A stretch of DNA of 17,340 nt, from NCBI GenBank assembly GCA_964625365.1, contig CAZVDA010000019.1:1-17340 (forward strand). Reading direction: 5' to 3'. The notes below the pieces were generated by a model. It worked only from the letters and a program-made list of their open reading frames with translations. It did no database searches and was not told the origin of the DNA. Made by a program: the position numbers and the translations under genes. Origin of the DNA: an uncultured Thiopseudomonas sp. GTDB lineage: Bacteria > Pseudomonadota > Gammaproteobacteria > Pseudomonadales > Pseudomonadaceae. Positions 3,729 to 16,440 of the stretch are shown piece after piece. Numbering within the stretch: the stretch's first letter is position 1; every line of letters starts with the position of its first letter.

Positions 3729-6584
3729 TTACAAACTCGCCATTTTCTCCCGCTGTTCGGTGAACTGGGCTAGCGCCTGTTCATATTCGGCCTGTTTGGC
3801 GCGCTCTTTTTCAATCACGTCGGCCGGGGCCTTGGCGACAAAGCCTTCATTGCCCAGCTTGCCGGCAACGCGCTTGATCTCGCCTTGCAATCGGGCGATT
3901 TCCTTGTCCAGTCGGGCCAGTTCGGCGGTGGTGTCGATCAGGCCGGCCATGGGCACCAGCACCTGTAGATCGCCGACCAGAGCGGTGGCGGACATGGGCG
4001 CTTCCTGACCGGCACCCAGGGTGCTGATGGATTCCAGCCGGGCCAGCTTGCTCAGGGTGGTTTCGTTGACCTGCAGGCGGCGGCGGTCTTCGGCGCTGCT
4101 GTTGGCCAGGTACAGCGGAATGGGCTTGCCCGGACCGATATTCATTTCGGCACGGATGTTGCGCACCGCCAGCATCACGCTTTTCAGCCATTCGATATCG
4201 CCTTCGGCCTGTGCATCCACTTTGTCGCCTTCGCTGGACGGGAAGGGTTGCAGCATGATGGTGGAGCCTTTTTTGCCGGCCAGCGGCGCAATGCGCTGCC
4301 AGATTTCTTCGGTGATGAACGGCATGAACGGATGCGCCAGTCGCAGGGCGGCTTCCAGTACCCGCACCAGCGTGCGGCGTGTACCACGGGTACGGGCGGC
4401 CGGGGCGTTTTCGTCCCACAGCACCGGTTTGGACAGCTCCAGATACCAGTCGCAATACTGGTTCCAGATGAATTCGTACAGGGCGTTGGCGGCCAGGTCG
4501 AAGCGGAACTGGTCCAGCTGGCGGGTGACTTCCTGCTCGGTGCGCTGCAACTGGGAGATAATCCAGCGGTCGGCCACCGTCAGTTCGACCTCCTGCTCCG
4601 TACCCAGCCCCACATCCTTGTCTTCGCACTGCATCAATACGTAACGCGCGGCGTTCCAGATTTTGTTGCAGAAGTTGCGATAGCCTTCTACCCGGCCCAT
4701 GTCGAACTTGATGTCGCGGCCGGTGGAGGCCAGTGAGCAGAAGGTAAAGCGCAGGGCGTCGGTGCCGTAGCTGGCAATGCCGTCGGCAAACTCTTCGCGG
4801 GTCTGCTTTTCAATGGCGGCGGCCATTTGTGGCTGCATCATGCCGCTGGTGCGTTTTTTTACCAGTGACTCAAGGTTGATACCGTCGATGATGTCCAGCG
4901 GGTCCAGCACGTTGCCGCGGGACTTGGACATCTTGTGGCCCTGGCTGTCGCGCACCAGGCCATGGACATAGACGGTTTTGAACGGAATCTGCGGGCTGCC
5001 GTCTTCATGTTTGACCAGATGCATGGTCAGCATGATCATGCGGGCAACCCAGAAGAAGATGATGTCAAAACCTGTCACCAGCACATCGGTGGGGTGGAAG
5101 GTTTCGAGGAATTCGGTCTGTTCCGGCCAGCCCAGGGTGGAGAAAGTCCACAAGCCGGAGCTGAACCAGGTATCAAGTACGTCTTCGTCCTGGCGCAGTG
5201 CGAGGTCGGCTGCCAGGCTGTATTTTTCCCGCACCTCGGCTTCGGTACGACCGACATAGACCTTGCCGGATTCGTCATACCAGGCCGGAATGCGGTGACC
5301 CCACCACAGCTGGCGCGAGATGCACCAGTCCTGGATGTCGCGCATCCAGCTGAAATACATGTTTTCGTATTGCTTGGGCACGAACTGGATGCGGCCGTCT
5401 TCCACGGCGGCAATCGCCGGCTCGGCCAGCGGCTTGGTGGACACGTACCACTGGTCGGTCAGCCATGGCTCGATGACAGCACCGGAGCGGTCGCCGCGCG
5501 GAGTTTTCAGTGCGTGCGGCTCGATTTTTTCCAGCAGACCTAGGCTTTCAAAGGCGGCGACAATACGCTTGCGGGCCTCGAAGCGGTCCAGGCCGGCAAA
5601 CTGCGCCGGCAGGCTGGCGTCCAGCTCAGCGTTGTGGCTGCCATCGCTGTTGAAGATCTGCGCGGTGGCCAGAATGGCGGCGTCCTGATCGAGAATGTTG
5701 ATCATGGGCAGCTGGTGGCGCTTGCCGACTTCGTAGTCGTTGAAGTCATGGGCGGGGGTGATTTTTACACAGCCGGTGCCGAACTCGGGGTCGCAGTAGT
5801 CGTCGCCGACAATCGGGATGCGGCGGCCCACCAGTGGCAGTTCAACAAAGCTGCCGATCAGCTCTTTATAACGTTCGTCCTCCGGGTTTACCGCTACGGC
5901 GGTGTCACCGAGCATGGTTTCCGGACGGGTGGTGGCGACTACCAGATAATTTTTGCCATCGGCGGTGGTGGCGCCGTCAGCCAGCGGGTAGCGCAGGTTC
6001 CACAGGCTGCCCTGCTCGTCATGGTTTTCCACTTCCAGGTCGGAAATGGCGGTATGGAATTTCGGGTCCCAGTTGACCAGCCGCTTGCCACGGTAAATCA
6101 GGCCGTCGTTGTACAGGCGGACAAAGGCCTCTTTAACCGCTTCGGACAGGCCGGCATCCATGGTAAAGCGCTCGCGGCTCCAGTCCACCGAGCTGCCCAG
6201 CCGGCGGATCTGGCGGGTGATGGTGCCGCCGGACTGCTCTTTCCACTGCCAGACCTTGTCCAGAAAAGCCTCGCGGCCGAGGTCGTGACGGGTTTTGCCC
6301 TGGGCTTCCAGCTGGCGCTCAACCACCATCTGGGTGGCGATGCCGGCGTGGTCGGTGCCGGGCTGCCACAAGGTATTGCGGCCCTGCATACGGCGGTAGC
6401 GGATCAGCGCATCCATGATGGCGTTGTTGAAGCCGTGACCCATGTGCAGGCTGCCGGTGACGTTGGGCGGCGGAATCATGATGGTGTAGGGGTCGCCGGA
6501 ACCCTGGGGGGCAAAATACAGATTGCTTTCCCAGTTCTGGTACCAGATGGCTTCGATGGCGTGCGGCTGATAGGTTTTATCCAT
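3729..6584 (-). CDS. valS: Valyl-tRNA synthetase
   Basis: The track ORF 3729..6659 is trimmed to [24 protein letters not shown]..., which aligns with E. coli ValS [24 protein letters not shown].... It has [21 protein letters not shown] (HIGH motif) and [15 protein letters not shown] (KMSKS), and the C-terminal coiled-coil tail typical of ValRS. The stop is TAA (complement of 3729-3731). Confidence 0.96.
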
Positions 6585-6753
6585 GGTTTGGCAAAAATCC
6601 CGATAACAAAAGGGCTTGAAGAAAGGGTCGGAGTATACATTTAAATGGCGGCAAGCCAAAGAAGTGACCCTCCCTTCCTGTATGAGCAGGCTTGCCCTGC
6701 GACTGGTTGTTTATTCTCGCGGGGCAATCCCGCTTGATACAGGGGCGGTACAA

Positions 6754-9700
6754 TTATGGCTTGCTGGCGGGTTTGTCGGCCTGTTTTTGCCGCTCGCGGC
6801 GTTCCTGCTGGCGTATGTGGTTGAGGGTGACTACCAGGGCGGAGCGCAGGAAGCGGTCGGAGCGTTGCTGGTCGCTAATCAGCTGTTCGGAGCGCTCCAG
6901 GATGTCGGGCCAGGGTATGCCCTGTTCGGCAGGCCGGCTGCTGCGAGTGGCGGTGACCAGATCGACCAGCTGGGCAACGATCTTGCCGCCGATATCTCCG
7001 TCGGCACCGCCAATGCTCTGGTTGCGCTGGAAGTTGCGCTTGATTTCGGCCCAGCGTGCCTGCTGGCTGTCGTTCAGGGTGTTGCGCAGCTCGCCCAGCT
7101 TGAGCAGGTTTTCTTCGGCACCCAGCGTCAGCAGCTGGGCTTCGCCGCGGTAGTGGTCGTCCAGCAGTTGCTGCATTTCCTGGTCGTTCATGACGGCGGT
7201 CACCTTTTCCGCCAGTTTGTTCATGTTGCGGTAGGAGCCCTGCAGCTTGAACGGTGGTTCGGTGCGGTAGGCGTCGGCCTGGGCGGCGCTGGCGATGTAT
7301 TGCTGGTTGATGCGCCACAGCACTTCGCGCACGGTCAGCAGGCGCTGCAGGACGGCTTCGATTTCGCGCAGTTCGGCGGCGCTGTAGTCGTGGCTGAGGG
7401 CGTTGCCGGACACTTCGTGGCCACGGGCCTTACTGACCAGCAGGTGCAGGTCGTTGAGGTCGCGGTTGGCCAGCGGGGCCAGTACCGGGTTGCTGGTGAG
7501 GCTGTTTTCAATGTAGCTGAGCTTGAAGGTTTCTTCCTGGCCGCCCAGCACGTCGCCGAGGTTATAAATGTCGGCACGGTTGGCCAGCATGTCGGGAATT
7601 TTGAACACTTCTCCGGACTCGGTATAGGGGTTGCCGGACATCACCAGGCAGAATTTTTTGCCGCGCAGGTCGTAGGTTTTGGACTGGCCCTGCCAGATAC
7701 CTTCCATGCGGCGGGTACCGTCGGCCAGCGAGATGAATTTTTGCAGAAATTCGGGGTGGGTGTGCTGGATGTCATCGACATAGAGCATGACGTTGTTGCC
7801 CATTTCCAGCGCCAGGTTGAGTTTTTCCAGTTCGCGGCGGGCGGCGCTGTCGGGTGCGCGGGCGGGGTCGATGCTGCGTACTTCGTGCCCCAGCGAGGGG
7901 CCGTCGATTTTCATGAACACCAGCCCCAGCCGGTGGGCGACATATTCCATCAGGGTGGTTTTGCCGTAACCGGGGGGCGAAATCATCATCAGCATGCCCA
8001 TCAGGTCGCTACGCTTGTTGTTGCCGGCGGTACCCATCTGTTTGGCCAGATTGTCGCCAATCAGCGGCAGATACACCTGGTCGATCAGCTGGTTGCGGAC
8101 AAAGCTGGTCATGGGTTTGGCCTTGAAGCTATCCAGCTGCAACTGCTGGCGCTGTTCGCTGGTGATGCGCTGGCGCAAGGCCTGATAGGCCTGCAGGCCG
8201 GGCTGGTAATGCCGCTGGTGCCACAGGGCATTGCTGGAAAAACCGTCAACCGACAGCAGCAGTTCGCCATCCTGGATGCGCGGGTGCTGGCTGAGCAGGC
8301 CGGTGACGCGGGTGTGCAGCTGCATCGGCACGATCTGGCGTGGCAGGGCAGGGTCCAGCAGCAACAGGGCGGCGGCTTCCAGCGCATAGGGGGCGTTGGC
8401 GTGCTGTTCCGGCTGGCTGGCCAGCGCATTGAGCCAGTGCAGGGCTAGCTCCAGCCGCTGGTTGAGCGCCAGTGCCGGGTTGCCCAGCGAGGCGTGCAGG
8501 CTATGCCAGCTGCCGTCGGCTTCCAGGGTGGCCTGCAGCAACTGGGTCAGCTGTTCGGCGTGACTGGAGAAGTGGAAACTGTGGGTGTCGTAGGCCAGCT
8601 CGTCGGCCAGGTAGCGGGCGGCTTCGTGGCTGAGGGTGTCCAGCGGGGTATCGGCGTGACAGGTGAAGGGCGTCAGGTGTGCCTGTTCGGCAAACCGGCC
8701 CAGCACCGCGGCGATATCGCGTACCAGTGCCTGGCCGGCGAGCCGGCTGCCCATGACCCGCTGCAGCATGCGGGCGCTGGTGGCACGTACCGGCCAGTGT
8801 GCGGCGTCATCGTTGTCGCCTTGCTGGTTCCAGAACAGTACGGCCAGCGCCCGGGCGCTGGCATCGTGGGCCAGTACGCCGGCCACTTCGCGCAGCGGCA
8901 GCAACGCTTGCAGAATCAGGGCGGCGTCATGGTCGTGAATGCCCCGTTCATAGCCGTCACGGTAGCGGGGGGCGGCAAAGTTGCGGACGGCACGCACCAG
9001 CTCGTCCGGCTGGTGCATGAGCTCGGCCAGCTGTTGCGAACTGATGGCCGTGTTGTCGCCAGCAGCGGGCTGTTCGGCGCTGTTGATGACCTGCAGTGCC
9101 AGGTATTCGGCCCGGCTGAAACGGTCGGACTCGGAGGCGAAGGTGGCGTCCCAGAAGGTGCGCAGGGCGTCCAGCTCGGGGTGGATGACCGGTTGCATGT
9201 AGTCGGTGCCGACCAGATGGGTATACAGGTGGTCACCGCGTGGCATCAGGGTCAGGTCCAGCGGCTGGGTGTTGACCGAGAAACGGTGCCGGCCGAGCCG
9301 GATGATGCTGCCGCCTGCTTCGAACAGGGTGCTGCGGTCGGACTGCAGGCGCAGCGCCTGGTCCTGTACCGCCTTCAGGCGGGCGCTGATGTCGTCGGCC
9401 TTGACGCTGTCCTGCAGGGCTCGCAGGCGGTCGGCCAGATCGTGCAGCTTGAGGATTAGCGCATCGCTGGCAAAAAAGCTGTTGAGGGCGTCACGTTCCT
9501 GCAGCCGTTCGGTGCGCCGGGGCAGACCGTCGAGAATGCGCAGGGCGGCATCGTACAGGGTCTGGGCGCGGCGCTGGCGTTCGTCGAGCAGGGTTTGTTT
9601 GCGGCTTTCAAAGGCTTCCAGCAGGGCTTCGCGCTTGGCCAGAATATCGGTGAGGAACTGTTCGTGCTCGCCATACTGGCTTTCCAGTTCTTCCAGCAGC

Positions 9701-11925
9701 ACCTGTTGGTGGGCCAGCTGTTCGTCACAGCTTTCCGGGTCGCTGGCCAGGGCCAGTGCGCTGGCCATGCCTTGCTCGAACAGGGTGAACTGGGCACCAA
9801 ACTGGGCGCTTTGCTCGGCGCTGCCCAGAGTTTTGCGTTTTTGGTCGGCGCGGGCGCGGCTCTGGTTGAGCTGGGCATAGATTTCGGAAATACCTTCGAC
9901 AATGCGGGTGCGCAGGGCAGGGTCGTCAATGCGCAGGGCAGCCATCAGTTCGGACAGGGTATCCAGTTCGCTGGCCATGTCCTGCAATTCGCCGAGTACC
10001 GCGTCCAGTTGCGGGGTGTTTTCGGCGGCGGCGATGGCGGCACCCTGATCTTTCAGGGCGTCGTGGTAGGGCACCAGCGAAGCGTCGTCGGCCAGGAAAT
10101 CGGCGGTCCGGGCGGCCACTTCCTGCTGGGCCTGTTCGAGTTGCTGTTGCAGGTGCTCCAGCGCGGGCTGATCCAGATAACGCAGGTCGCGCAGGCTGAT
10201 CAGGCGGCCACGTTGCTGACTGATGCGCGCCAGTGCCTGGGCAAAGTCCCGTGCAAGGTTCCAGCTGGCGTGGCGGATATCGGTCAGCATTTGTTGCTGG
10301 CGGGCGGTCGCTTCGGCCAGCTGGCGGGCAGTATCGGCCTGGATGCTGGCGACTTTTTCGTACTCGTCCAGCACCGCTTCGCCGCTGGCAATGATGGTGT
10401 CCAGTAGCGGTGCCAGAGCCGGCTCGGGGCCGTTGGCCTCCATCCAGTGGTGATGCTCGGTCAGCCGGCGGGTGGTAGCGATCAGCCGCTCGTAACGCTG
10501 GCTGGAAATTTCGTTGCTGTGGATGTCCTGGGTCAGGCTGAACAGCTCGGAAATGCCGCGTACCAGCTCGGCGTTGCCAATGCGCCCCAGCGGGGTGTCC
10601 CGTTGCGGGGCGCTGGCGGCATAGTCGTCACTGATAAAGGGCGTTTGCCAGATTTGCATCGGATGGGTGCGGGTGGGCTCGCTGGTGTCGTCGTTGAATA
10701 CCGCCATGCGGCCGTCTTCGAGCAGGGCGTAGCCGCTGGCCAGCACCGGGCGCTGCAGGGCCCGTTCGATCAGGTTGTAGGTAAAGAGGGCAAAATTGCC
10801 GCTTTCCGGCTCGCGGAATACATAGAGTACGTCTTCGCCGTTGGGTGAGCGGCGCATGCGGCGAAAGCGCATGCCGGCCATGTCCTGATCAAAGGCGTGC
10901 ACTTCGCCGCTTTCCAGTACATAACCGCCGGGAAAGATGATGCCGTGGTCTTCCGGCAGCTGCCGGCAGGCCAGGCCGATGGCGTCGTTGCGGATAACCT
11001 TGCCGGTCAGGGGGTTGAACACCAGATAGCGCCACTGTTCCTCGCGGTACGGCAGGATTTTCAGCAGAATCAGGCTGCCAACCCTGGCGTATTCGATGCG
11101 GGCATCGCCCAGTGCCTGGCTGGTATCGCTGACTGGCTCGCGCCAGATGCCGAGGCCGTCTTCGGTGTTGTTTTCCACCTTGATGGTCAGGTCGCCGCCA
11201 ACGGCTTCAACAAACAGGCTGTCGAGAATGTTGATGTGGGGGTGGCGGCCCTGGACTTCGTCTTCGCGGCGGGTGGCGGTCCATTCAAAGTCAAAGGCGG
11301 GTGGCGCTGCCAGGTCGCGCTCGCCGCGGTTGTCGATGTAGCGGATGGCGCTGGCATCGGCGGCAACTTGCCAGCGGAATACCCGCATGTCGGTGGCCCG
11401 CTCGCCAATCTGGAAGCCGGCCAGCAGTTTGTTGTCGAGCACGGTCATGTGGGTCAGCCGTGCGCCCTTGTAGTAGGCATAGAGTTCGGTAAAGTCACGC
11501 ACAAAACCGGGGTCGTCGAGAAAGCTGCCGGCCAGCGGCAGCGGCTTGACGTCATAGCCGTTTTCATCGTCTTGCAGCGCGTACAGGGCAAATACATCAT
11601 CGACCCGGGTGGTGGTTTTCAGGCCGATAAAGACGTTATAGCCAAACAGCAGATACCCGCCCACCTGCACGATATCGCGGCCAATGCAGTTGTTTTCGGT
11701 ACGCACGCGAAAGCGTCCCAGCAGCTCGGAGCGGCTGCTGCCAAACTCTTCCAGCCGCAACTGGTTGAGCCGGAGTGCCAGCTCGTGCAGTTGCCGGCCC
11801 TGGCCGTGCAGGCGCTTTTGCAGAACTTCATAGGCACCGCCACGGGCCACGCCTTCATCTACGGAGGTGAGGGACGGCTCTGAATGGCTGGAGTCGGTGG
11901 GGCGTGGATCGGCCATGGACATCAT
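6754..11925 (-). CDS. Giant (1723 aa) uncharacterised multidomain protein with a C-terminal AAA+ (AAA_5/MoxR-like) P-loop ATPase domain, and the last gene of the PspA/flotillin cluster
   Basis: The minus-strand ORF is uninterrupted. The N-terminal region of about 480 aa looks beta-rich. Residues about 480-900 form a long Q/L/A/E/R-rich predicted coiled-coil or helical region. Residues about 1300-1480 carry Walker A ISPPGYGKTT (nt 7954-7977) and Walker B NNVMLYVDDIQH (DD at 7771-7776), then a sensor-like CLVMSGNPY segment. The last 250 aa or so are a helical tail with a basic C-terminus. Codon usage matches its neighbours. The start is uncertain (MMSMADP...), with no clear SD. Confidence 0.8.
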   Translation of the reverse strand: MMSMADPRPTDSSHSEPSLTSVDEGVARGGAYEVLQKRLHGQGRQLHELALRLNQLRLEEFGSSRSELLGRFRVRTENNCIGRDIVQVGGYLLFGYNVFIGLKTTTRVDDVFALYALQDDENGYDVKPLPLAGSFLDDPGFVRDFTELYAYYKGARLTHMTVLDNKLLAGFQIGERATDMRVFRWQVAADASAIRYIDNRGERDLAAPPAFDFEWTATRREDEVQGRHPHINILDSLFVEAVGGDLTIKVENNTEDGLGIWREPVSDTSQALGDARIEYARVGSLILLKILPYREEQWRYLVFNPLTGKVIRNDAIGLACRQLPEDHGIIFPGGYVLESGEVHAFDQDMAGMRFRRMRRSPNGEDVLYVFREPESGNFALFTYNLIERALQRPVLASGYALLEDGRMAVFNDDTSEPTRTHPMQIWQTPFISDDYAASAPQRDTPLGRIGNAELVRGISELFSLTQDIHSNEISSQRYERLIATTRRLTEHHHWMEANGPEPALAPLLDTIIASGEAVLDEYEKVASIQADTARQLAEATARQQQMLTDIRHASWNLARDFAQALARISQQRGRLISLRDLRYLDQPALEHLQQQLEQAQQEVAARTADFLADDASLVPYHDALKDQGAAIAAAENTPQLDAVLGELQDMASELDTLSELMAALRIDDPALRTRIVEGISEIYAQLNQSRARADQKRKTLGSAEQSAQFGAQFTLFEQGMASALALASDPESCDEQLAHQQVLLEELESQYGEHEQFLTDILAKREALLEAFESRKQTLLDERQRRAQTLYDAALRILDGLPRRTERLQERDALNSFFASDALILKLHDLADRLRALQDSVKADDISARLKAVQDQALRLQSDRSTLFEAGGSIIRLGRHRFSVNTQPLDLTLMPRGDHLYTHLVGTDYMQPVIHPELDALRTFWDATFASESDRFSRAEYLALQVINSAEQPAAGDNTAISSQQLAELMHQPDELVRAVRNFAAPRYRDGYERGIHDHDAALILQALLPLREVAGVLAHDASARALAVLFWNQQGDNDDAAHWPVRATSARMLQRVMGSRLAGQALVRDIAAVLGRFAEQAHLTPFTCHADTPLDTLSHEAARYLADELAYDTHSFHFSSHAEQLTQLLQATLEADGSWHSLHASLGNPALALNQRLELALHWLNALASQPEQHANAPYALEAAALLLLDPALPRQIVPMQLHTRVTGLLSQHPRIQDGELLLSVDGFSSNALWHQRHYQPGLQAYQALRQRITSEQRQQLQLDSFKAKPMTSFVRNQLIDQVYLPLIGDNLAKQMGTAGNNKRSDLMGMLMMISPPGYGKTTLMEYVAHRLGLVFMKIDGPSLGHEVRSIDPARAPDSAARRELEKLNLALEMGNNVMLYVDDIQHTHPEFLQKFISLADGTRRMEGIWQGQSKTYDLRGKKFCLVMSGNPYTESGEVFKIPDMLANRADIYNLGDVLGGQEETFKLSYIENSLTSNPVLAPLANRDLNDLHLLVSKARGHEVSGNALSHDYSAAELREIEAVLQRLLTVREVLWRINQQYIASAAQADAYRTEPPFKLQGSYRNMNKLAEKVTAVMNDQEMQQLLDDHYRGEAQLLTLGAEENLLKLGELRNTLNDSQQARWAEIKRNFQRNQSIGGADGDIGGKIVAQLVDLVTATRSSRPAEQGIPWPDILERSEQLISDQQRSDRFLRSALVVTLNHIRQQERRERQKQADKPASKP
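7485..8030 (-). other. AAA+ ATPase domain of the giant protein (approximate extent)
   Basis: GYGKTT is encoded at 7954-7971 on the minus strand and the LYVDD Walker B at about 7770-7785. The spacing and the downstream hhhhSGNP motif resemble MoxR/AAA_5/dynein-like ATPases rather than the Vps4/FtsH classic clade. Confidence 0.6.
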
Positions 11926-11952
11926 CTCGCAAAAGGGGCGGTGAACAGGAAG

Positions 11953-11973
11953 CGCCCGCCGTGCTGGCGGGCG
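11953..11973 (-). other. 8-bp all-GC stem-loop in the 59-nt gap between the flotillin and giant-protein genes. It may be an attenuator or partial terminator.
   Basis: The arm cgcccgcc (11953-11960) pairs with ggcgggcg (11966-11973), with loop gtgct. On the minus strand it is followed by CTTCCTGTTCAC, which is only weakly U-rich. Confidence 0.35.
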
Positions 11974-11984
11974 TTCGATGCAGG

Positions 11985-13994
11985 TCAGGCCTGGCTGGAA
12001 GGGTTGCCGTCGGCCGGGAGGGCGGCCGGTTCGATGGCGGCGCTGTTGGTCTGCTGGGCCTGGGCCAGCATTTCAGCCACTTTGGCACCGCCTCCCAGAC
12101 GTTGCAGTACATCACCCACCAGCGGGCTTTTGCTGGTCAGGCCGTCGAGGAATTTGCCCATCGACAGGCCGCCGGCAAACTTGTCGAAGAAGGCCCCTTC
12201 GCCGCCAACGATATCAATATTGGCGTTGGACAGTGCGGCCGCCATGGTTTGCGCCTGGTCGTGGGCAATAGCCTTGCTGGCGGCAATGCTGGCCATGGCC
12301 TGCTCGAAGGTTTTCTCCAGCTGCATGCGGAACTCTTCGTGGGCGCGGGCAGTGTCGCCGAGCTGGTCGAGGGCGGCAAACTTCTTGACCAGACCCTCGG
12401 CTTCGGCGAGCAGCTTTTCGCGGGTGACGCCGGCTTCGGCCTGACCCACATCCTGGGTGACCTTGGCCTGGGTGCTGCCCACCTGCTGTTCGCCACGGGC
12501 CTGGGCCAGCAGCTTTTCTTCCAGCACCCTGGCTTGTGCCAGGCCCTGTTCCTGCTCGACACGGGCTTGCGCAAGGCCTTCTTTTTCCAGTGCGGCAGCG
12601 CTGACTTCGCGTACTTTGGCGTCGGCCAGACCGGGCGCGGCACGCTCGGCCTGGATGCCTTCGGCCAGGCGCTTCTTGGCTTCGGCCTGCTGGGTGGCTG
12701 CATCCAGTTCGGCCTGCGCCAGTACGGTAATTTTGACCGCCTCGTGACGGGACGCCTCTTCGTCAGCTTCGGCCTGCTTGATTTGCTTGACCAGCGACTC
12801 TTCGGCTTCGGCCTTGGCCTGCAATACCACCACCTGGCGGTCACGGTCGGCGGCAGACACTTCACGCACTTCCTTGATGCGCTCTTCTTCCTGGGCGACG
12901 GTTTTTTCTACCATCACCCGCTCGCGGATGACGTTGGCAATAGTGGCCTTTTCGGTTTCCAGCGCTTTTTCCTTTTCGATGCGCTGCAGCTCGACTTCAC
13001 GTTCGCGGGCGACAATTTCCAGCTCGCGGGCACGGGACACCTTCTCGATTTCGATGGCGACTGCCCGCTGTCGGTTTTGCTGGGCCACTTCAACTTCGCG
13101 CTGGCGGTTTTCCTCGCGCACTTCCACCAGCTCCTGGGTGGTGATGCGGGCCTGTTCGGCTTTTAGGCGCTCTTCTTCCTGTACTTTCAGGGTTTCGGCT
13201 TCCTCGCGGGCGCGGATGCTGGCAATTTCACGGGCCTGGCGGGCTTCGGCATCGGCCTTCTGGCGCTCCAGCGACAGCATGGCTTCACGGGTTTCTACGT
13301 TTTTCTTGGTGATGGCCAGCTCTTCGTTGCGCGAAATTTCGTTGGTGACAATATTTTGCGCGGCGGTCAGCTCGGTAATCTTGCGGATACCCTCGGCGTC
13401 GAGAATGTTGGCCGGGTCGAGTGCTTCTTTTGGCGTCTGCTCGATGTAGTCGATGGCCACGTCTTCCAGCGCATAACCGTTCAGGTCCTGGCCGATGACT
13501 TCGATGATGCGGTCACGGAACTGCTGGCGGTTTTCAAACAGTTTGACAAACTCGGTCTGCTTGCCCACGGTTTTTAGTGCTTCGGAGAACTTGGCATTGA
13601 ACAGTTCGTTGACCGCATCCTTGTCGGATGCGCGGTCAGCGCCCAGTGATTTGGCTACCTTGAGCACGTCGGCGGCGGTTTCGTTGACCCGCAGGTAAAA
13701 CGCCACGGTGATGTCGGCACGCATGTTGTCCTGACAGATCAGTCCCTCTTTACCGCGGCGGTCAATGTAGAGGGTGAGCAGCGAGATTTTCATGAATTCT
13801 TTTTTGTGGATGACCGGCCAGACCAGGCCGCCGGTAAAGCGCACCTTGGGCGTGCTGCTCAGGTCGTTGATGATCAGCGCGGTCCCTTGCGGTACCTTGA
13901 TGTAGAACGCCTTGAACAGCAACAGGATGGCGATGATGAACAGCAGCAGGACAAAACCTGCGGTCAGCAGCGGGGCCAGGATACCCATGTTCAT
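11985..13994 (-). CDS. Flotillin-family SPFH/band-7 protein (YqiK-like) with an extended Glu/Ala/Arg-rich repeat region
   Basis: The 669-aa product has an N-terminal TM helix MNMGILAPLLTAGFVLLLFIIAILLLF, then an SPFH domain (VRFTGGLVWPVIHKKEFMKISLLTLYIDRRGKEGLICQDNMRADITVAFYLRVNE...). A long EA-rich coiled coil follows, with 11-aa repeats (GLAQARVEQEQ / GLAQARVLEEK / LLAQARGEQQV). The SD is AAGGAAA about 8 nt upstream. Confidence 0.9.
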   Translation of the reverse strand: MNMGILAPLLTAGFVLLLFIIAILLLFKAFYIKVPQGTALIINDLSSTPKVRFTGGLVWPVIHKKEFMKISLLTLYIDRRGKEGLICQDNMRADITVAFYLRVNETAADVLKVAKSLGADRASDKDAVNELFNAKFSEALKTVGKQTEFVKLFENRQQFRDRIIEVIGQDLNGYALEDVAIDYIEQTPKEALDPANILDAEGIRKITELTAAQNIVTNEISRNEELAITKKNVETREAMLSLERQKADAEARQAREIASIRAREEAETLKVQEEERLKAEQARITTQELVEVREENRQREVEVAQQNRQRAVAIEIEKVSRARELEIVAREREVELQRIEKEKALETEKATIANVIRERVMVEKTVAQEEERIKEVREVSAADRDRQVVVLQAKAEAEESLVKQIKQAEADEEASRHEAVKITVLAQAELDAATQQAEAKKRLAEGIQAERAAPGLADAKVREVSAAALEKEGLAQARVEQEQGLAQARVLEEKLLAQARGEQQVGSTQAKVTQDVGQAEAGVTREKLLAEAEGLVKKFAALDQLGDTARAHEEFRMQLEKTFEQAMASIAASKAIAHDQAQTMAAALSNANIDIVGGEGAFFDKFAGGLSMGKFLDGLTSKSPLVGDVLQRLGGGAKVAEMLAQAQQTNSAAIEPAALPADGNPSSQA

Positions 13995-14032
13995 GGTGAT
14001 GTTTCCTTTTGGGGTCAGTAATGGGGTGTCAG

Positions 14033-14647
14033 TCAGAGGCCACGAAATTCGTGTTCGCTGACCACGCGCCAGGCATCGCTGCCGGGCAGTTGTTCGATCA
14101 GGACAATGCGGCTGCCAAGGGGCAGCTCTTCGCCGCTGGTGCGTACCTGCAGAATCAGCCCTGCACCGCCGTCATCAATGCTGGCATGGCCGTATGCGGC
14201 GGTTGCCGTGCTGCTGCGCACCACGCCACTGCGGCCGGCCAGCACCTTGGGGGCGTGTCCGCCGCTGGCGCGGTGCAGCAGGCGGCGTACGGGGCGCAAC
14301 ACCAGGGCAGTCAGGAAGGTGCCAACGACAAAGGCGGCCACTGCAATCAGGCTGCCCAGCAACAGGGTGCTGAAGCTGCCCGGCATCAGTGGCAGTGCCA
14401 GCAATACCATGAAGTAGCAACATAGCCAGCCCAGCAGGGCCATCAGGCTGAGCACGATGGTCAGCGGTACGCCGCCCAGCCCCAGGCGTGACAGCAGGCC
14501 GGTGGCATCGCCCAGGCTGTCGCCGCCATCGGCGGTATCGCCGGCCAGACCGGTCATCGCAATCAGCCAGTAGGCCACGCTGACGGTCAGCCAGGCGGTG
14601 AACAGGGCGGTGGGGTAGCTGGAAATAATGCTGAGAAACACGTCCAT
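14033..14647 (-). CDS. YqiJ/NfeD-like inner-membrane protein, the usual partner of the flotillin YqiK
   Basis: The track ORF 14033..14701 is trimmed to MDVFLSIISSYPTALF..., preceded by GGAGAG. The N-terminal half is multi-TM. The C-terminal soluble domain (VLAGRSGVVRSST...ILQVRTSGEELPLGSRIVLIEQLPGSDAWRV) looks like an NfeD-like OB-fold. It sits immediately upstream of the flotillin gene, as in the E. coli yqiJK pair. Confidence 0.72.
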   Translation of the reverse strand: MDVFLSIISSYPTALFTAWLTVSVAYWLIAMTGLAGDTADGGDSLGDATGLLSRLGLGGVPLTIVLSLMALLGWLCCYFMVLLALPLMPGSFSTLLLGSLIAVAAFVVGTFLTALVLRPVRRLLHRASGGHAPKVLAGRSGVVRSSTATAAYGHASIDDGGAGLILQVRTSGEELPLGSRIVLIEQLPGSDAWRVVSEHEFRGL

Positions 14648-14708
14648 TATGGGCTCTCCGGCACGGCAGTGTGTCATGGACCGGCCTGGAAGCCGGCCCA
14701 TGGCTGGG

Positions 14709-15419
14709 TCAGTTGTCGGCCGCTTGTTGGCTGTTCTGGCGGGCCTTGAGGCGGGCCAGCACCGAGTCGGCGCTTTGGGTTTCGGTCAGGATGCCGGCCT
14801 GGCGCAAGCGCTGGTTGAGGCTGTCGCCGTTGCTGTCGCGGGCTATTTCGCTGGCCGCTTCCAGCCGTGCGCTGCGCTCGGCCTGCTGCTGCTTGATGCG
14901 CTCCAGCGAGTCCAGTGCGGTTTGCAGGCGCGAGTCGGTGCCCTGATAGCGCTCGGCAACTGCGGTTTGTGCACGCTGCACGCTCTCGGTCGCCTTGACT
15001 GTATCAGCCTGCTGCTTGAGGCGGCGGATATGGCTTTCGGCCTGGTTGATGGCGTCGCGCAGCTGGCTGGCGCTGTTGCCCAACTGGTCGGCCAGCTGTT
15101 GTTCTTCGCCCAGCTGGGCTTCCAGTGTGGCGATACGGCCGGCGACTTCCAGCGCCAGGGTTTCGTCGCCCTGCTCTAGTGCCCGGGTGGCGTAGCCTTC
15201 GTTGTTGGCAATCTGGCTGCGGGTTTCGGCCAACCGGGCCTGCGCCAGTTTTTCTTTGGCCATGAGGCCGGCCAGGGCCTCCCTGCTTTTGCGCAGGTCG
15301 TCGTCGGCATCACGGATTTCCTGGTCCAGAATGCGCAGGGCCTGGCTGTCAACCAGTGCTTCGCCGGCTTCGTGGGCACCGCCGCGCAAGGCGGTCAGCA
15401 ATTTGCTCCATACACTCAT
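14709..15419 (-). CDS. PspA/IM30-family protein (YjfJ-like; ESCRT-III superfamily)
   Basis: The track ORF 14709..15704 is trimmed to Met96 (MSVWSKLLTALRGGAHEAGEALVDSQALRILDQEIRDA...), which has AGGAGA 6 nt upstream. It is alignable with E. coli YjfJ (MGILKSLFTLGKSFISQAEESIEETQGVRMLEQHIRDAKAEL...QFEQQMEVVKATEAMQRAQQAV...QTRQAERQARLDAAAQL...VLARLQRQQ). No pspBC or pspF is present nearby. Confidence 0.85.
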   Translation of the reverse strand: MSVWSKLLTALRGGAHEAGEALVDSQALRILDQEIRDADDDLRKSREALAGLMAKEKLAQARLAETRSQIANNEGYATRALEQGDETLALEVAGRIATLEAQLGEEQQLADQLGNSASQLRDAINQAESHIRRLKQQADTVKATESVQRAQTAVAERYQGTDSRLQTALDSLERIKQQQAERSARLEAASEIARDSNGDSLNQRLRQAGILTETQSADSVLARLKARQNSQQAADN

Positions 15420-15438
15420 GATGTTCTCCTGCGTGTGC

Positions 15439-15885
15439 TCAAGGGGTTGGCTGGTTGAGACTGCTTTCAAAGGCTTCGGTAATTCGCACCACGTTGTCAG
15501 CCAGGGTGTCGATTTCGTAGAGGACGCTGTCAAGGATGGAGCCGGCGCTGAGTGCGCCGAACATGATGTAGGCGTCCTGCTGGTCTGCGGTGGTTTCAAT
15601 GCCGACCGAGGACAGCGGGAACAGTTTCTGCATTCGCAAAATCTGTTCGTTGAACTGCACCGGATCCTGCACCATGCTGACCGGCCACAGGTAGGCTTCA
15701 ACAATGATCTGGCCGCCCGCTACTGCCAGAAACAGGGGCAGTTCGCCATAGTCATGCATGCGAATCAGCAGGCTGGGCTCGGTGCCTTCGATCAGCTCCA
15801 GGGTTGCCCGCCCGTCGCGGGCCAGTGACGTACCGTTCAGTGCTTCAAGCAGTGTTTCTGTGGTCCATGTGGTCGTGCGGGTCAT
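15439..15885 (-). CDS. Small conserved hypothetical protein, YjfI/DUF2170-like by context. This is the first gene of the cluster. A possible N-terminal extension reaches 16065.
   Basis: A 148-aa form starts at MTRTTTWTTETLLEALNG..., with a strong GGAGG SD 5-6 nt upstream (rc of 15891-15895). The frame stays open a further 60 codons to an ATG at 16065 (MEQKTSAYYQRLYRQRLREQGLIKKELW...). That ATG sits 7 nt after a predicted -10 box, so a leaderless 208-aa form is possible. It is followed 19 nt later by the pspA-like gene. Confidence 0.6.
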   Translation of the reverse strand: MTRTTTWTTETLLEALNGTSLARDGRATLELIEGTEPSLLIRMHDYGELPLFLAVAGGQIIVEAYLWPVSMVQDPVQFNEQILRMQKLFPLSSVGIETTADQQDAYIMFGALSAGSILDSVLYEIDTLADNVVRITEAFESSLNQPTP

Positions 15886-16065
15886 GCTGTCCTCCATGAG
15901 GCGAGGGGTAAGGTGATCCTGTCCGGGCAGGCGCATCTGTTGCTCCAGTTCGGCAAGCTGTGCGCTGTATTCGGGAAGAATCCAGAGTTCTTTTTTAATC
16001 AGGCCCTGTTCGCGCAGACGCTGGCGATAAAGGCGCTGGTAGTAGGCTGAGGTTTTTTGTTCCAT

Positions 16066-16117
16066 GACGTGAATTTAAACTATCACATGTGATTTTTGCA
16101 ATATCTTACATGTGACG
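16066..16117 (-). promoter_or_regulatory. Sigma70-like promoter of the YjfI-PspA-YqiJ-flotillin-giant ATPase operon with an embedded palindromic operator
   Basis: The minus strand reads TTGCAA (16101-16096), a 17-nt spacer AAATCACATGTGATAGT, TTAAAT (16078-16073), then TCACGTC and ATG(16065). The spacer contains the perfect palindrome ATCACATGTGAT (16082-16093). A second near-copy TTACATGTGAC lies at 16106-16116, 23 bp centre to centre. An extra ATCACA half-site lies at 16121-16126. Confidence 0.4.
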
Positions 16118-16165
16118 TTGATCACAGATTTGTATTCAGGTGTGAAAACAATTTTTCAGGCTGCC

Positions 16166-16274: not shown

Positions 16275-16440
16275 CAACGTTCTCAGGGCGGGGTGCAAGT
16301 CCCCACCGGCGGTGATGCCTGTCGCTGTAGGCCAACTACAGGCAGGACAAGCCCGCGAGCGCCTGTGCCGCTGTGTACAGGGTCAGCAGAACCGGTGTGA
16401 TTCCGGTGCCGACGGTGATAGTCCGGATGCGAGAGGGCGG
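16275..16440 (+). promoter_or_regulatory. FMN riboswitch (RFN element) aptamer in the ribE leader
   Basis: The conserved RFN blocks are all present: TTCTCAGGGCGGGGTGCAAGTCCCCACCGGCGGT, AGCCCGCGAGCGCC, and GGTCAGCAGAACCGGTGTGATTCCGGTGCCGACGGTGATAGTCCGGATGCGAGAG. The P1 arms are TTCTC (16280-16284) and GAGAG (16431-16435). A leader of about 110 nt follows, ending at the ribE SD GGAGA (16539-16543). Confidence 0.9.

What the first reader, a model, noticed from the sequence alone, without database searches (positions are those of the whole stretch)
6754..16065. One operon fuses YjfI/DUF2170, a PspA/IM30 homologue (YjfJ-like), YqiJ/NfeD, the flotillin YqiK and a 1723-aa AAA+ ATPase
In E. coli, yjfIJ (DUF2170 plus PspA-like) and yqiJK (NfeD plus flotillin) are separate loci of unknown function. 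Here they are contiguous, co-oriented and tightly spaced: gaps are 19, 61, 38 and 59 nt, and each gene has its own SD. They are followed by a giant P-loop ATPase. PspA/IM30 proteins are ESCRT-III-superfamily membrane remodellers, and flotillins scaffold membrane microdomains. An ATPase co-encoded with both suggests an energised membrane-repair or remodelling machine rather than a passive scaffold. From memory, Pseudomonas aeruginosa has a similar five-gene arrangement, the 'bac' biofilm-associated cluster PA3728-PA3732, whose large terminal gene has no assigned mechanism. If that recollection is right, the module is conserved across beta- and gamma-proteobacteria but mechanistically undescribed. 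No pspF, sigma54 promoter or pspBC is present, so regulation differs from the canonical Psp response.
Basis: partly seen in the sequence, partly recalled or inferred. Interest (0 to 1): 0.85.

Follow-up and report, generated by a model that had tools for sequence, protein, structure and literature searches.

The report
Known bac membrane-stress operon (PspA–flotillin–ATPase)
This five-gene cluster is real, but it is the already published "bac" operon of Pseudomonas-like bacteria (PspA, a flotillin and a giant ATPase); what the ATPase does is still unknown, and comparison with other genomes suggests a simple, so far undescribed self-repression switch in front of the operon.

Summary
Five co-oriented minus-strand genes lie at 6754-16065, with gaps of 19, 61, 38 and 59 nt. 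They encode BacA (DUF2170), BacB (PspA/IM30), BacC (3-TM NfeD/YqiJ-like), BacD (SPFH/flotillin) and BacE, a 1723-aa protein built of a beta-propeller, coiled coil, helical domain and AAA+ module.

It is not new. The contig comes from a Thiopseudomonas-like gammaproteobacterium and carries an orthologue of P. aeruginosa bacABCDE. Ravi et al. (2020/2024) described this operon class. Wallart et al. (2024) showed bacA-F co-transcription by RT-PCR. bacF (a PLD-family gene) is absent here; valS follows.

In 73 of 73 related genome loci, and 51 of 54 distant metagenome loci, the ATPase gene sits directly behind the NfeD-like and flotillin genes. PspA/DUF2170 accompany it in only 46 of 73. The core is therefore flotillin plus ATPase, with PspA as an accessory. 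An ATP-driven membrane-scaffold remodeller is the best reading, but it is untested.

One side result seems new. BacA has a conserved 46-aa N-terminal domain that was left out of the published crystal structure. Two TYACATGTRA palindromes bracket a sigma70 -35 box, and the bacA mRNA appears leaderless. The motif occurs only where this N-domain occurs, which suggests direct autorepression rather than sigma54 control.

The parts
16106..16115 (-). Distal operator-like palindrome O1 (TCACATGTAA on the coding strand), centred about -48 from the bacA ATG
   Evidence: TYACATGTRA occurs twice in the window against 0.02 expected (0 of 200 shuffles reach 2); the same motif sits at the same distance upstream of bacA in 41 loci and almost nowhere else.
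16096..16101 (-). Putative sigma70 -35 box (TTGCAA), lying between the two palindromes
   Evidence: Read. In related loci the inter-palindrome spacer carries TTGACA, TTGAAA or TTGATT. This is an inference from conservation; the consensus scan did not call it.
16083..16092 (-). Proximal operator-like palindrome O2 (TCACATGTGA), inside the -35/-10 spacer
   Evidence: O2 ends 15-20 nt (mode 17) before the ATG in 33 loci from different genera.
16072..16077 (-). Putative -10 box (TAAATT). It ends 6 nt before the ATG, so the bacA mRNA would be leaderless.
   Evidence: no SD precedes the ATG; related loci carry TAGTCT, TAGTGT or TAGGCT 6-7 nt before the ATG; a stop codon lies only a few codons upstream of the ATG in most loci. 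Inference; no TSS data.
15439..16065 (-). bacA: conserved basic N-terminal domain (aa 1-46), variable linker, then DUF2170/CesT-like domain (aa 63-202). An internal ATG at 15885 (M61) is preceded by GGAGG.
   Evidence: PDB 8q8o aligns with aa 63-202 only, E=6e-40..
14709..15419 (-). bacB: PspA/IM30 (ESCRT-III superfamily) protein, 236 aa
   Evidence: PF04012, E=3e-50, full-length match. SD GGAG.
14033..14647 (-). bacC: membrane protein with three hydrophobic segments and a C-terminal beta-rich domain (short NfeD/YqiJ-like), 204 aa
   Evidence: architecture. (only sub-threshold YqiJ_N/NfeD hits, and only in orthologues). The orthologue PA14_16160 is called a short NfeD in PMC13086221.
11985..13994 (-). 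bacD: SPFH/flotillin-like protein, 669 aa. N-terminal membrane anchor, Band_7 domain, long E/A/R/K-rich coiled coil and a weak Flot-like C-terminus.
   Evidence: The orthologue PA14_16180 is named PaFlo3 in PMC13086221.
11953..11973 (-). GC-rich hairpin (8 G-C pairs, loop of 5) 11 nt after the bacD stop codon. Possible partial terminator or attenuator ahead of bacE.
   Evidence: Not statistically distinguishable from chance (13 terminator-like sites found, 11.9 expected).
6754..11925 (-). bacE: 1723-aa soluble protein. N-terminal helix (aa 21-61), beta-propeller/DUF3686 (aa ~46-493), coiled coils including DUF7902 (aa ~445-869), confidently predicted helical domain with no PDB match (aa ~890-1260), single AAA+ module (aa ~1300-1500) and a helical C-terminus. 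The start may be M4 (11916).
   Evidence: Invariant motifs.
7426..8028 (-). AAA+ core of BacE: Walker A GYGKT (K1322), Walker B VDD (D1384-D1385), sensor-1 N1432 and Arg-finger candidate R1450 in NRAD
6660..6753 (-). Structured bacE-valS intergenic region, marking the end of the operon in this genome. No bacF/PLD gene is present.
   Evidence: -42 kcal/mol, z=-3.5, 0 of 200 shuffles as stable. (the next gene is valS). (no BacF match in the window's arrangement).

Best explanation
The region is the Thiopseudomonas-type orthologue of the published Pseudomonas aeruginosa bac operon. Here it is bacABCDE, the variant without the PLD gene bacF.

Shown:
- Five co-oriented genes with the same order and domain content as PA3732-PA3728.
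- This order is conserved across gamma- and beta-proteobacteria.
- In PA14 the genes are co-transcribed and co-regulated (literature).

Inferred architecture:
- The invariant core is BacC (short NfeD-like membrane protein), BacD (SPFH/flotillin scaffold anchored in the inner membrane with its bulk in the cytoplasm) and BacE.
- BacE is a soluble giant protein. Its beta-propeller and roughly 400-aa coiled coil would dock on or reach the scaffold.
- Its single AAA+ module is of the RuvB/MoxR-like pre-sensor-1 hairpin type, with all nucleotide-binding motifs invariant. It would use ATP to assemble, disassemble or turn over the flotillin lattice, or clients held in it.
- BacA-BacB is an optional add-on that links an ESCRT-III-like PspA polymer to this scaffold.
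- BacA's CesT-like domain binds PspA.

Regulation (my own inference):
- BacA's conserved N-terminal domain binds two TYACATGTRA palindromes that bracket the -35 box of a sigma70 promoter. BacA would thereby repress its own operon.
- The bacA mRNA starts at its ATG (leaderless).
- Envelope stress that draws PspA to the membrane would change BacA's occupancy and derepress the operon.
For: Identity:
- NCBIfam BacA equivalog above its cut-off.
- The same gene order with 52-70% identity in P. aeruginosa.
- PDB 8q8o, the BacA crystal structure, matches at E=6e-40.

Conservation:
- 73/73 genome loci have BacC-BacD directly upstream of BacE on the same strand, and 46/73 also have BacA-BacB. Of 68 loci with both flanks readable, 30 are ABCDEF, 15 ABCDE, 20 CDE and 3 CDEF.
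- In a distant clade (~30-40% identity), 51/54 loci have BacD and 49/54 have BacC.
- PspA turns up in several different positions: upstream without DUF2170 (7 loci), downstream of BacE (L077) and divergent (L153). Repeated independent linkage argues for a functional connection.

Literature:
- RT-PCR across every junction, and a 6-13-fold rise of BacB-F in a bacA mutant (PMC10948618).
- PA3728-PA3732 are co-induced by phage infection (PMC12041424) and rise together in a proteome study (PMC13637947).
- BacA-BacB interaction predicted by AF2 with probability 0.981 (PMC13092808).
- The operon class is described in PMC11237479.

BacE anatomy.

Regulation:
- The motif occurs twice in the window against 0.02 expected.
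- There are 72 matches in 41 of 163 loci, all but one just upstream of bacA.
- None of the 27 BacA-less loci has it, and none of the 4 loci with a short, N-domain-less DUF2170 has it.
- Xanthomonad BacA proteins with a divergent N-domain have a correspondingly divergent operator pair.
- The distance from O2 to the ATG is fixed (mode 17 nt), and bacA has no SD.
Against: - No experiment links BacE to BacD, BacC or BacB physically. No gene fusion was found; the one apparent BacD-BacE fusion (L044) was an artefact.
- Walker B is DD rather than the canonical DE, so hydrolysis competence is assumed, not shown.
- A paFlo3 (bacD) deletion in PA14 had only about a 20% biofilm effect (PMC13086221).
- The N-domain of BacA has only sub-threshold similarity to a DNA-binding-type family: PF11455 MazE-like, 16/23 members, best E=0.0013. 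It has no PDB match.
- The published model invokes a sigma54 promoter. The bacA mutant was a transposon insertion, so the rise of downstream proteins could be a polar or read-out effect (my inference).
- Both locus samples are the 'best 80' of larger hit sets, so the percentages are not an unbiased census.
Confidence: 0.55

Rival explanations
1. BacE is a Vps4-like disassembly ATPase for the PspA (ESCRT-III-like) polymer. On this view PspA is its true substrate and the flotillin only localises it.
For: - PspA and BacE are co-encoded here and in 46/73 loci.
- PspA is re-linked in several gene orders.
- Ravi et al. draw the Snf7/Vps4 analogy for PspA-AAA+ associations.
Against: - 27/73 genome loci and most distant loci (28/41) have BacCDE with no PspA in the neighbourhood.
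- BacE has no MIT-like domain by Pfam.
Confidence: 0.2
2. The cluster is an anti-phage or abortive-infection system. BacE would be the sensor or motor, and the PLD-family BacF (where present) a nuclease or phospholipase effector.
For: [quoted passage not shown]
- BacF matches PLD-type defence components such as DrmC in PADLOC (E=3.6e-9).
- Gene content varies between genomes (with or without AB, with or without F), and the neighbours differ.
Against: - None of BacA-E has a meaningful PADLOC hit. The only hits are weak LmuB/JetC matches to BacB (E=8e-4 to 3e-3), which I read as coiled-coil matches.
- The PLD match is generic for the HKD fold.
- bacF is missing here and in 35 of 68 loci.
- The Psp response is classically induced by phage and envelope stress without being an immune system (established knowledge).
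Confidence: 0.07
3. BacE is a DNA-repair ATPase, as most databases name it, and its position next to membrane genes is incidental.
For: - Pfam describes DUF3686 as 'ATPase involved in DNA repair', and NCBI names the homologues 'DNA repair ATPase'.
- Weak RuvB-like matches over the P-loop region.
Against: - No paper in the library supports the name.
- No DNA-binding or nuclease domain was found.
- The RuvB similarity is confined to the generic AAA+ core.
- Linkage to NfeD-like and flotillin genes is 73/73 and 51/54.
- Co-transcription with the membrane genes has been shown in PA14.
Confidence: 0.03
4. The palindromes upstream of bacA are bound by some other regulator encoded elsewhere, or the operon is sigma54-dependent as published. 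BacA would then regulate only through protein-protein contacts.
For: - The sigma54 site was proposed by two papers.
- The BacA N-domain has no significant match to a known DNA-binding fold.
- PA14_16190 is strongly RsmA-regulated (PMC8855297), so other regulatory layers exist.
Against: - No sigma54 consensus lies near bacA in this window.
- In what I read, the published site rests on sequence inspection only.
- The motif tracks the presence, and even the sequence subtype, of the BacA N-domain across 160 loci.
Confidence: 0.3

Closest known systems
Pseudomonas aeruginosa bac operon, bacABCDEF (PA3732-PA3727 / PA14_16140-PA14_16200; Macé 2008, Wallart 2024)
   Same: - Same gene order, strand and domain content for the first five genes. 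Protein identities to the window are 52% (BacA), 61% (BacB), 37% (BacC), 70% (BacD) and 58% (BacE).
- BacA passes the NCBIfam equivalog cut-off.
- The twin palindromes lie at the same distance from the bacA ATG.
   Different: - bacF (PLDc_2) is absent here and valS follows.
- All five proteins are closer to the Comamonadaceae versions, which also lack bacF, than to the Pseudomonas ones.
- No phenotype or transcript data exist for this organism.
CesT/Tir(DUF2170)-PspA + band-7/flotillin + AAA+ (coiled-coil, beta-propeller) + YqiJ/YuaF operon class of Ravi et al., mSystems 2024 (preprint 2020)
   Same: This is that class. Every component matches the published description, including the optional PLD and the 'abbreviated' flotillin + YqiJ + AAA+ operons. 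My survey reproduces it.
   Different: The paper gives no mechanism, no regulation and no BacA N-domain. My counts add that the ATPase is essentially never found without the NfeD-like/flotillin pair.
HflK/HflC-FtsH (an SPFH cage enclosing an AAA+ machine) and NfeD-stomatin operons
   Same: An SPFH scaffold is genetically and functionally coupled to an AAA+ protein. An NfeD-family gene lies immediately upstream of the SPFH gene (established knowledge; architecture).
   Different: - BacE has no protease domain and no TM segment.
- The bulk of BacD is predicted to be cytoplasmic, not periplasmic (inference).
- The BacE AAA+ module is RuvB/MoxR-like, not FtsH-like.
ESCRT-III/Vps4 and the classical E. 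coli PspF-PspABC system
   Same: - BacB is a full-length PspA/IM30 protein.
- An ATPase is co-encoded.
- Regulation probably involves a PspA-binding partner (BacA), as PspA binds PspF.
   Different: - No pspF, pspB or pspC is present.
- No sigma54 site was found.
- There is no MIT domain, and the ATPase is linked primarily to flotillin.
MoxR-type AAA+ remodellers (NorQ/NorD, CbbQ/CbbO, RavA/ViaA)
   Same: - Best Pfam AAA model is AAA_5.
- Best structural matches include NorQ and CbbQ.
- The motif GNPYTESGEVFKIPDMLANRA after sensor-1 resembles the MoxR 'NP...G...lP.AllDRF' signature (from memory of the family; the residues are invariant).
   Different: - No VWA-domain partner gene is in the operon.
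- BacE is about six times larger and carries propeller, coiled-coil and helical domains.
- Walker B is DD.
Bacillus subtilis pspA-ydjGHI and yuaF-floT
   Same: PspA is functionally tied to an SPFH protein, and a YuaF/NfeD-like protein to a flotillin (PMC8581546, from the listing; Ravi et al.).
   Different: Those Bacillus operons as listed (pspA-ydjGHI, yuaF-floT) include no giant ATPase gene. The accessory proteins are different, and there is no DUF2170.

Membership tests
Pseudomonas bac operon (bacABCDEF) | BacA orthologue (NCBIfam NF050185 equivalog) | tested here: met
   309.5 bits against a cut-off of 300, covering 1-205 of 206 model positions.
Pseudomonas bac operon (bacABCDEF) | Gene order DUF2170 - PspA - short NfeD - SPFH - DUF3686 ATPase on one strand | tested here: met
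   The order is identical in P. aeruginosa L001.
Pseudomonas bac operon (bacABCDEF) | Sixth gene bacF (PLD/HKD family) downstream of bacE | tested here: not met
   valS follows after 94 nt. bacF is also absent from 35 of 68 related loci, so it is not universal to the class.
Pseudomonas bac operon (bacABCDEF) | Single transcript through all junctions | not testable with these tools
   Shown only for PA14 by RT-PCR. Here the evidence is short gaps and one strand. A GC hairpin after bacD might attenuate read-through.
PspA/IM30 (ESCRT-III superfamily) | Full-length PspA_IM30 domain | tested here: met
   PF04012, E=3e-50, residues 2-229 on model positions 1-219 of 220.
Canonical Psp regulon | pspF activator, sigma54 promoter, pspB/pspC partners | tested here: not met
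   None of these genes is in the window. No sigma54 consensus lies within 210 nt of bacA. A sigma70-type promoter with twin operators is inferred instead.
SPFH / flotillin | Band_7 (SPFH) domain after an N-terminal membrane anchor | tested here: met
   Band_7 E=5.7e-9, above its cut-off, once the coiled coil was removed. Hydrophobic stretch at residues 1-37.
SPFH / flotillin | C-terminal Flot domain; orthology to E. coli YqiK | tested here: inconclusive
   Flot E=0.015 for the window protein, and 9/16 orthologues hit below threshold, best 0.005. No PDB sequence match. PMC13086221 states that PaFlo3 has no E. coli orthologue. A direct YqiK comparison was not run.
NfeD / YqiJ | NfeD or YqiJ domain detectable by sequence | tested here: inconclusive
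   No Pfam hit for the window protein. YqiJ_N hits in 4/19 orthologues (best 0.0018) and NfeD in 1/19.
NfeD / YqiJ | TM segments plus a C-terminal beta domain, encoded immediately upstream of an SPFH gene | tested here: met
   BacC precedes BacD in 73/73 loci.
AAA+ ATPase (pre-sensor-1 hairpin group: RuvB/MoxR/MCM-like) | Walker A, sensor-1 and Arg finger conserved; AAA+ fold | tested here: met
   - AAA_5 at 27.4-30.4 bits against a cut-off of 22.
- K1322, N1432 and R1450 are invariant.
- Assigning these residues to their roles is by analogy.
AAA+ ATPase (pre-sensor-1 hairpin group: RuvB/MoxR/MCM-like) | Canonical Walker B hhhhDE | tested here: not met
   The sequence is LYVDDIQH. D1384-D1385 are invariant in all homologues, including the distant clade.
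MoxR subfamily | Partner protein with a VWA domain encoded nearby | tested here: not met
   No VWA gene is in the window or in L001-L003.
Vps4-type ESCRT ATPase | N-terminal MIT domain plus classical-clade AAA | tested here: not met
   There is no MIT hit. The N-terminus is a helix followed by a beta-propeller.
Known anti-phage defence systems (PADLOC) | Any component matching a defence model | tested here: not met
   BacA, BacC, BacD and BacE have no hits. BacB gets only weak LmuB/JetC hits (E=8e-4 to 3e-3), which I read as coiled-coil matches.
'DNA repair ATPase' (database name for DUF3686 proteins) | DNA-binding or repair domain, or a repair gene context | tested here: not met

The most novel reading that the evidence does not exclude
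BacA is a two-part autorepressor, not only a chaperone.
- Its conserved 46-aa N-terminal domain is missing from the annotated and crystallised P. aeruginosa protein. This domain would bind twin TYACATGTRA operators that bracket the -35 box of a sigma70 promoter, and that promoter would produce a leaderless bacA mRNA.
- Its CesT-like domain holds PspA. Titration of PspA to a damaged membrane would then switch the operon on. This would be a PspF-independent, sigma54-independent partner switch.
- In parallel, BacE would be the first dedicated AAA+ remodeller of a bacterial flotillin lattice, because its gene is essentially never found without the NfeD-like/flotillin pair.
Probability: 0.35. Interest if true: 0.6.

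Novelty: already known. Interest (0 to 1): 0.33.

Why it matters
The cluster links the two main families of bacterial membrane-shaping proteins, PspA/ESCRT-III and SPFH/flotillin, to an energy source. In P. aeruginosa it affects biofilm formation, rhamnolipid production and virulence, and it is induced by phage infection. As a discovery it is not new, because the operon class and its co-transcription are published.

Two open points remain useful:
1. The biochemical role of the 1700-aa BacE ATPase is unknown, and databases still label it 'DNA repair ATPase'. The survey here says its obligate partners are the NfeD-like and flotillin proteins, which tells experimenters where to look first.
2. Regulation may be much simpler than the proposed sigma54 model. 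The evidence points to a self-encoded repressor domain, two operators and a leaderless transcript. This is directly testable with EMSA and 5'-RACE, and it would change how the published short-form BacA structure and the bacA mutant phenotype are read.

Tried and rejected
- Full-length BacD against Pfam and PDB sequences gave nothing. I attribute this to the coiled-coil composition, because the N-terminal fragment alone hits Band_7.
- A sigma54 consensus search in the window gave 104 matches at <=3 mismatches against 110 expected. None was usable upstream of bacA.
- The generic sigma70 scan missed the bacA promoter. The promoter is inferred from cross-genome conservation instead.
- An apparent BacD-BacE gene fusion in L044 would have been strong evidence of interaction. 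It was an artefact of my ORF-extension script: a stop codon at 9923-9925 separates the two genes.
- PADLOC found no defence-system match for BacA, BacC, BacD or BacE. BacB had only weak hits that I read as coiled-coil matches.
- The BacA N-domain profile against PDB gave only noise. Against Pfam it gave consistent but sub-threshold MazE-like/DUF3018 hits. The DNA-binding role therefore rests on co-occurrence, not on fold.
- A CRP/Vfr-like TGTGA-N6-TCACA at 16111-16126 overlaps O1, but I did not see it in the other upstream regions printed and did not search for it formally. I treat it as coincidence.
- The literature search for DUF3686 returned 0 papers.

Full report

Yes. The minus strand carries five consecutive ORFs:
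- 15439-16065 (208 aa)
- 14709-15419 (236 aa)
- 14033-14647 (204 aa; the ORF could start earlier, but this ATG has a GGAG SD)
- 11985-13994 (669 aa)
- 6754-11925 (1723 aa)

Pfam and NCBIfam give the following:
- DUF2170 (E=5e-49), plus the NCBIfam equivalog 'biofilm formation regulator BacA' above its cut-off (309.5 against 300 bits).
- PspA_IM30 (E=3e-50).
- For the giant protein, DUF3686 (E=4e-193), DUF7902 and AAA_5/AAA.

- The 669-aa protein gave no Pfam hit at all when scanned whole and no PDB sequence hit. Its first 234 residues alone hit Band_7 at E=5.7e-9, and its C-terminus hits Flot only weakly (E=0.015). Nine of 16 orthologues also hit Flot below threshold.
- The 204-aa protein has no Pfam hit. 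Only 4 of 19 orthologues touch YqiJ_N and one touches NfeD, all sub-threshold. Its architecture nevertheless fits a short NfeD: three hydrophobic segments, an acidic loop and a conserved C-terminal beta-rich domain, encoded directly upstream of an SPFH gene.

'Each gene has its own SD' holds for bacB, bacC and bacD only.

**2. Where does it come from, and what surrounds it?**

The window is a whole 17,340-bp contig. Its riboflavin synthase is in the same 90% cluster as that of Thiopseudomonas denitrificans, and the exact proteins are recorded from a gammaproteobacterial MAG. The host is therefore a Pseudomonadaceae-like gamma, not a beta.

Downstream of the giant gene lies valS, followed by an ABC transporter. 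Upstream and divergent lies an FMN riboswitch (16275-16442, 101 bits) followed by ribE. No pspF, pspB or pspC is present.

**3. It is a published system.**

- Macé et al. 2008 (PMC2587700) named PA3729-PA3732 the 'bac' cluster and noted that PA3731 is PspA-like.
- Wallart et al. 2024 (PMC10948618) showed RT-PCR products across every junction from PA14_16140 to PA14_16200. They renamed the cluster bacABCDEF and found BacB-F raised 6- to 13-fold in a bacA transposon mutant. They also solved the BacA structure, which has a CesT-like fold.
- Ravi et al. [quoted passage not shown] They note an optional PLD hydrolase and more widespread 'abbreviated' operons without the PspA dyad.

Further papers add:
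- PA3728-PA3732 are co-induced by phage infection and rise together in a proteome study.
- PA3728 is recurrently mutated in CF isolates.
- PA14_16190 is strongly RsmA-regulated.
- A BacA-BacB complex is predicted by AF2.
- BacD is PaFlo3 and BacC a short NfeD, and a paFlo3 deletion reduces biofilm by about 20%.

None of the papers I read assigns a mechanism to BacE. 'DUF3686' returns no paper, and Wallart et al. never mention an ATPase.

**4. Independent check of linkage.**

BacE has more than 6,400 homologues. The closest named ones are Comamonadaceae (63-66% identity), with Pseudomonas and Xanthomonadales at 58-60%. Most are labelled 'DNA repair ATPase'.

Gene neighbourhoods of three homologues:
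- P. aeruginosa and Lysobacter capsici have the same first five genes plus a PLDc_2 gene.
- Corticibacter has the same genes without PLD, and with an antisense GGDEF gene inserted before bacE.

A scan of one genome per species returned 80 loci from gamma orders (Pseudomonadales, Xanthomonadales, Enterobacterales such as Providencia, Xenorhabdus and Pragia, Orbales and others) and from beta Comamonadaceae. By tblastn with the window proteins:
- All 73 loci with enough upstream sequence have BacC-BacD directly upstream of BacE on the same strand.
- 46 of the 73 also have BacA-BacB.
- Among 68 loci with both flanks readable, 30 are ABCDEF, 15 ABCDE (the window's type), 20 CDE and 3 CDEF.

I then went to a distant clade. 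Its members are 30-35% identical to the window's propeller domain. They came from a search in which the family comprises 708 clusters at 50% identity. I scanned metagenomes with this clade and searched the flanks with HMMs built from the first set:
- 51 of 54 loci have BacD and 49 of 54 have BacC upstream.
- 13 of 41 have a PspA-like gene, and 6 of 41 have DUF2170.

PspA appears in several arrangements: upstream without DUF2170, downstream of BacE (L077) and divergent (L153). The obligate unit is NfeD-like + flotillin + ATPase, and the PspA dyad is a recurrent accessory. Both samples are the 'best 80' of larger hit sets, so the fractions are indicative only.

**5. Anatomy of BacE.**

AlphaFold2 on two overlapping halves, each with a 25-sequence alignment, gave the following.

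N-terminal half (mean pLDDT 74.6):
- A helix at residues 21-61.
- A beta-rich domain at residues 81-410. Foldseek matches only generic beta-propellers such as WD40, Kelch and prolyl-oligopeptidase propellers (E 1e-4 to 1e-3).
- Long helices from about 445 to 869, which include DUF7902 and have pLDDT of 80-90.

C-terminal half (mean pLDDT 76.4):
- A helical domain at residues ~890-1260, predicted with pLDDT above 90. It has no Pfam match and no convincing PDB match.
- One AAA+ module at ~1300-1500 with medium confidence.
- A helical C-terminal region and a poorly conserved charged tail.

- Walker A (SPPGYGKTT).
- Walker B, which is DD rather than DE (LYVDDIQH).
- GNPYTESGE.FKIPDML.NRAD, which contains the sensor-1 and Arg-finger candidates.

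BacE has no transmembrane segment. I found no second AAA+ module, no MIT domain, no VWA partner and no DNA-related domain.

**6. How it most likely works.**

Shown: the operon structure, its conservation, its co-regulation in P. aeruginosa, and intact nucleotide-binding motifs.

Inferred:
- BacD forms an SPFH/flotillin lattice on the cytoplasmic face of the inner membrane, with BacC as its NfeD partner.
- BacE docks through its propeller and coiled coil, and spends ATP to build, dismantle or exchange this lattice or the clients held in it.
- Where BacA and BacB are present, BacA chaperones PspA, and PspA adds ESCRT-III-like membrane sealing or remodelling at the same sites.

The nearest mechanistic precedents are HflK/C-FtsH (an SPFH cage with an AAA+ machine), ESCRT-III/Vps4 and MoxR-type remodellers. 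BacE fails the defining features of the last two as families (no MIT domain, no VWA partner). Their working principle may still apply.

I put identity at about 0.97 and this mechanism at about 0.35. Rivals:
- A Vps4-like role on PspA (0.2). It is weakened by the many PspA-less operons.
- A defence system (0.07). It has no PADLOC support.
- The database label 'DNA repair ATPase' (0.03). It has no support.

**7. A regulatory feature that I did not find in the literature.**

The bacA ATG at 16065 has no SD. In most related loci a stop codon lies only a few codons upstream of it.

The first ~46 residues of BacA follow the consensus MxxKSSAxYQRxxRQRLREQGLVKKEVWILPE...E..xRQP. They are strongly conserved in about 45 beta and gamma loci and are followed by a variable linker and then DUF2170. 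The crystal structure 8q8o covers only residues 63-202, and PA3732 was described as 16 kDa. This domain has therefore been left out of published work. It shows consistent but sub-threshold similarity to Pfam MazE-like/DUF3018 (16 of 23 members, best E=0.0013) and has no PDB match.

Immediately upstream lie two copies of the palindrome TYACATGTRA, at 16106-16115 and 16083-16092. That is two matches against 0.02 expected. Across 33 loci:
- The two copies are 22-24 nt apart.
- They bracket a TTGACA-like -35 box.
- The proximal copy ends 15-20 nt (mode 17) before the ATG.
- A TAGTCT/TAGTGT-type -10 box ends 6-7 nt before the ATG.

This is the geometry of a sigma70 promoter that produces a leaderless mRNA, with one operator in the spacer.

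Across all 163 loci held, the motif occurs 72 times in 41 loci, and all but one occurrence is at this position. It is absent from all 27 BacCDE-only loci. It is also absent from the four loci whose DUF2170 protein lacks the N-domain. Those loci carry a different repeat, GACAT-N4-ATGTC. Xanthomonad BacA proteins with a divergent N-domain have a matching variant operator pair, TTTCATGTAAG...CTTACATGAAAG.

Together with the published derepression in a bacA mutant, this points to BacA as a direct autorepressor. It argues against the sigma54 promoter, which was proposed from sequence inspection. This window has no sigma54 consensus there.

Caveats:
- DNA binding by the N-domain is inferred from co-occurrence only.
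- The mutant was a transposon insertion.
- There are no TSS data.

An internal ATG (M61, 15885) preceded by GGAGG suggests that a short, DUF2170-only isoform may also be made.

**8. Verdict.**

The finding is accurate but already explained at the level at which it was posed: a conserved operon joining DUF2170-PspA, NfeD-flotillin and a giant AAA+ protein. Its novelty as a scan hit is low.

What remains open is the biochemical role of BacE and the operon's regulation. My two contributions are:
1. The ATPase is tied to the flotillin pair rather than to PspA.
2. The BacA N-domain, twin-operator and leaderless-promoter model.

Noticed in passing
window 16083-16115 and 15926-16065 (minus strand); L001-L083, L128, L138, L150: BacA has a conserved ~46-aa N-terminal domain that is absent from the published crystal structure. 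Twin TYACATGTRA palindromes bracket a sigma70 -35 box, and there is no SD, so the mRNA is probably leaderless. The motif occurs only in loci whose BacA has this N-domain.
   Followed up: yes
window 15885-15905 (minus strand): An internal in-frame ATG (M61 of BacA) is preceded by GGAGG at a 5-nt spacing and corresponds to the short PA3732 annotation. Two BacA isoforms, with and without the N-domain, may be made.
   Followed up: partly
window 16275-16442 (+), with 16550-17206 (+): An FMN riboswitch (Rfam RF00050, 101 bits) with terminator-like hairpins at 16447-16477 precedes riboflavin synthase ribE. It is divergent from bacA and accounts for most of the 484-nt intergenic region.
   Followed up: partly
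window 11953-11973 (minus strand): A hairpin of 8 G-C pairs starts 11 nt after the bacD stop codon, ahead of the weakly SD-equipped bacE. It could lower the BacE:BacD ratio. It is not significant against shuffles, and its conservation was not checked.
   Followed up: partly
window 6660-6753 and 6584-6659 (minus strand): The bacE-valS spacer is very stably structured (-42 kcal/mol, z=-3.5) and has no U-tract. The valS start is ambiguous: TTG at 6659 with an AGGGAGGG SD, or ATG at 6584.
   Followed up: no
window 16111-16126 (minus strand): A perfect CRP/Vfr-type TGTGA-N6-TCACA overlaps operator O1. I did not see it in the other upstream regions printed and did not search for it formally, so it is probably coincidental.
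   Followed up: partly
window 6754-16065, compared with L002, L004-L006 and with L001, L007-L022: All five proteins are closer to Comamonadaceae (beta) versions than to Pseudomonas ones (for example BacB 65-73% against 58-64%, BacE 63-66% against 58-60%). Like those versions, the operon lacks bacF, although the host is a Thiopseudomonas-like gamma. Lateral transfer of the whole operon is possible.
   Followed up: partly
L145 5350-5500, L146 1090-1240, L153 (minus strand, upstream of 18262), L163 1200-1360: Loci whose DUF2170 protein lacks the N-domain carry a different repeated palindrome, GACAT-N4-ATGTC (for example TTGACATATTATGTCA), in front of the gene. The half-sites are similar but the spacing differs, which suggests a different regulator.
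   Followed up: no
L075 about 5700-5773: Pseudomonas sp. MF4836 has both operators changed in the same way, to TCACGCGTGA, and a BacA N-domain that is truncated or rearranged.
   Followed up: no
L077 14978-15676; L153 5886-7087; L097, L100, L104, L110, L111, L115, L135, L137, L139, L152: Alternative placements of PspA relative to the BacCDE core: downstream of BacE, divergent, or upstream without any DUF2170 gene. In the last group the PspA matches are only E=1e-8 to 1e-12, and coiled-coil bias was not excluded.
   Followed up: partly
L002 8421-9890; L004, L005, L053 between bacD and bacE: In several Comamonadaceae and other loci, 2-3.4 kb is inserted between bacD and bacE. In Corticibacter the insert is an antisense protoglobin-GGDEF gene, so co-transcription cannot be universal.
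   Followed up: no
window 7771-7776 (BacE D1384-D1385): The Walker B motif is DD instead of DE in every homologue examined, including the 30%-identity clade.
   Followed up: partly
[not shown]
   Followed up: partly
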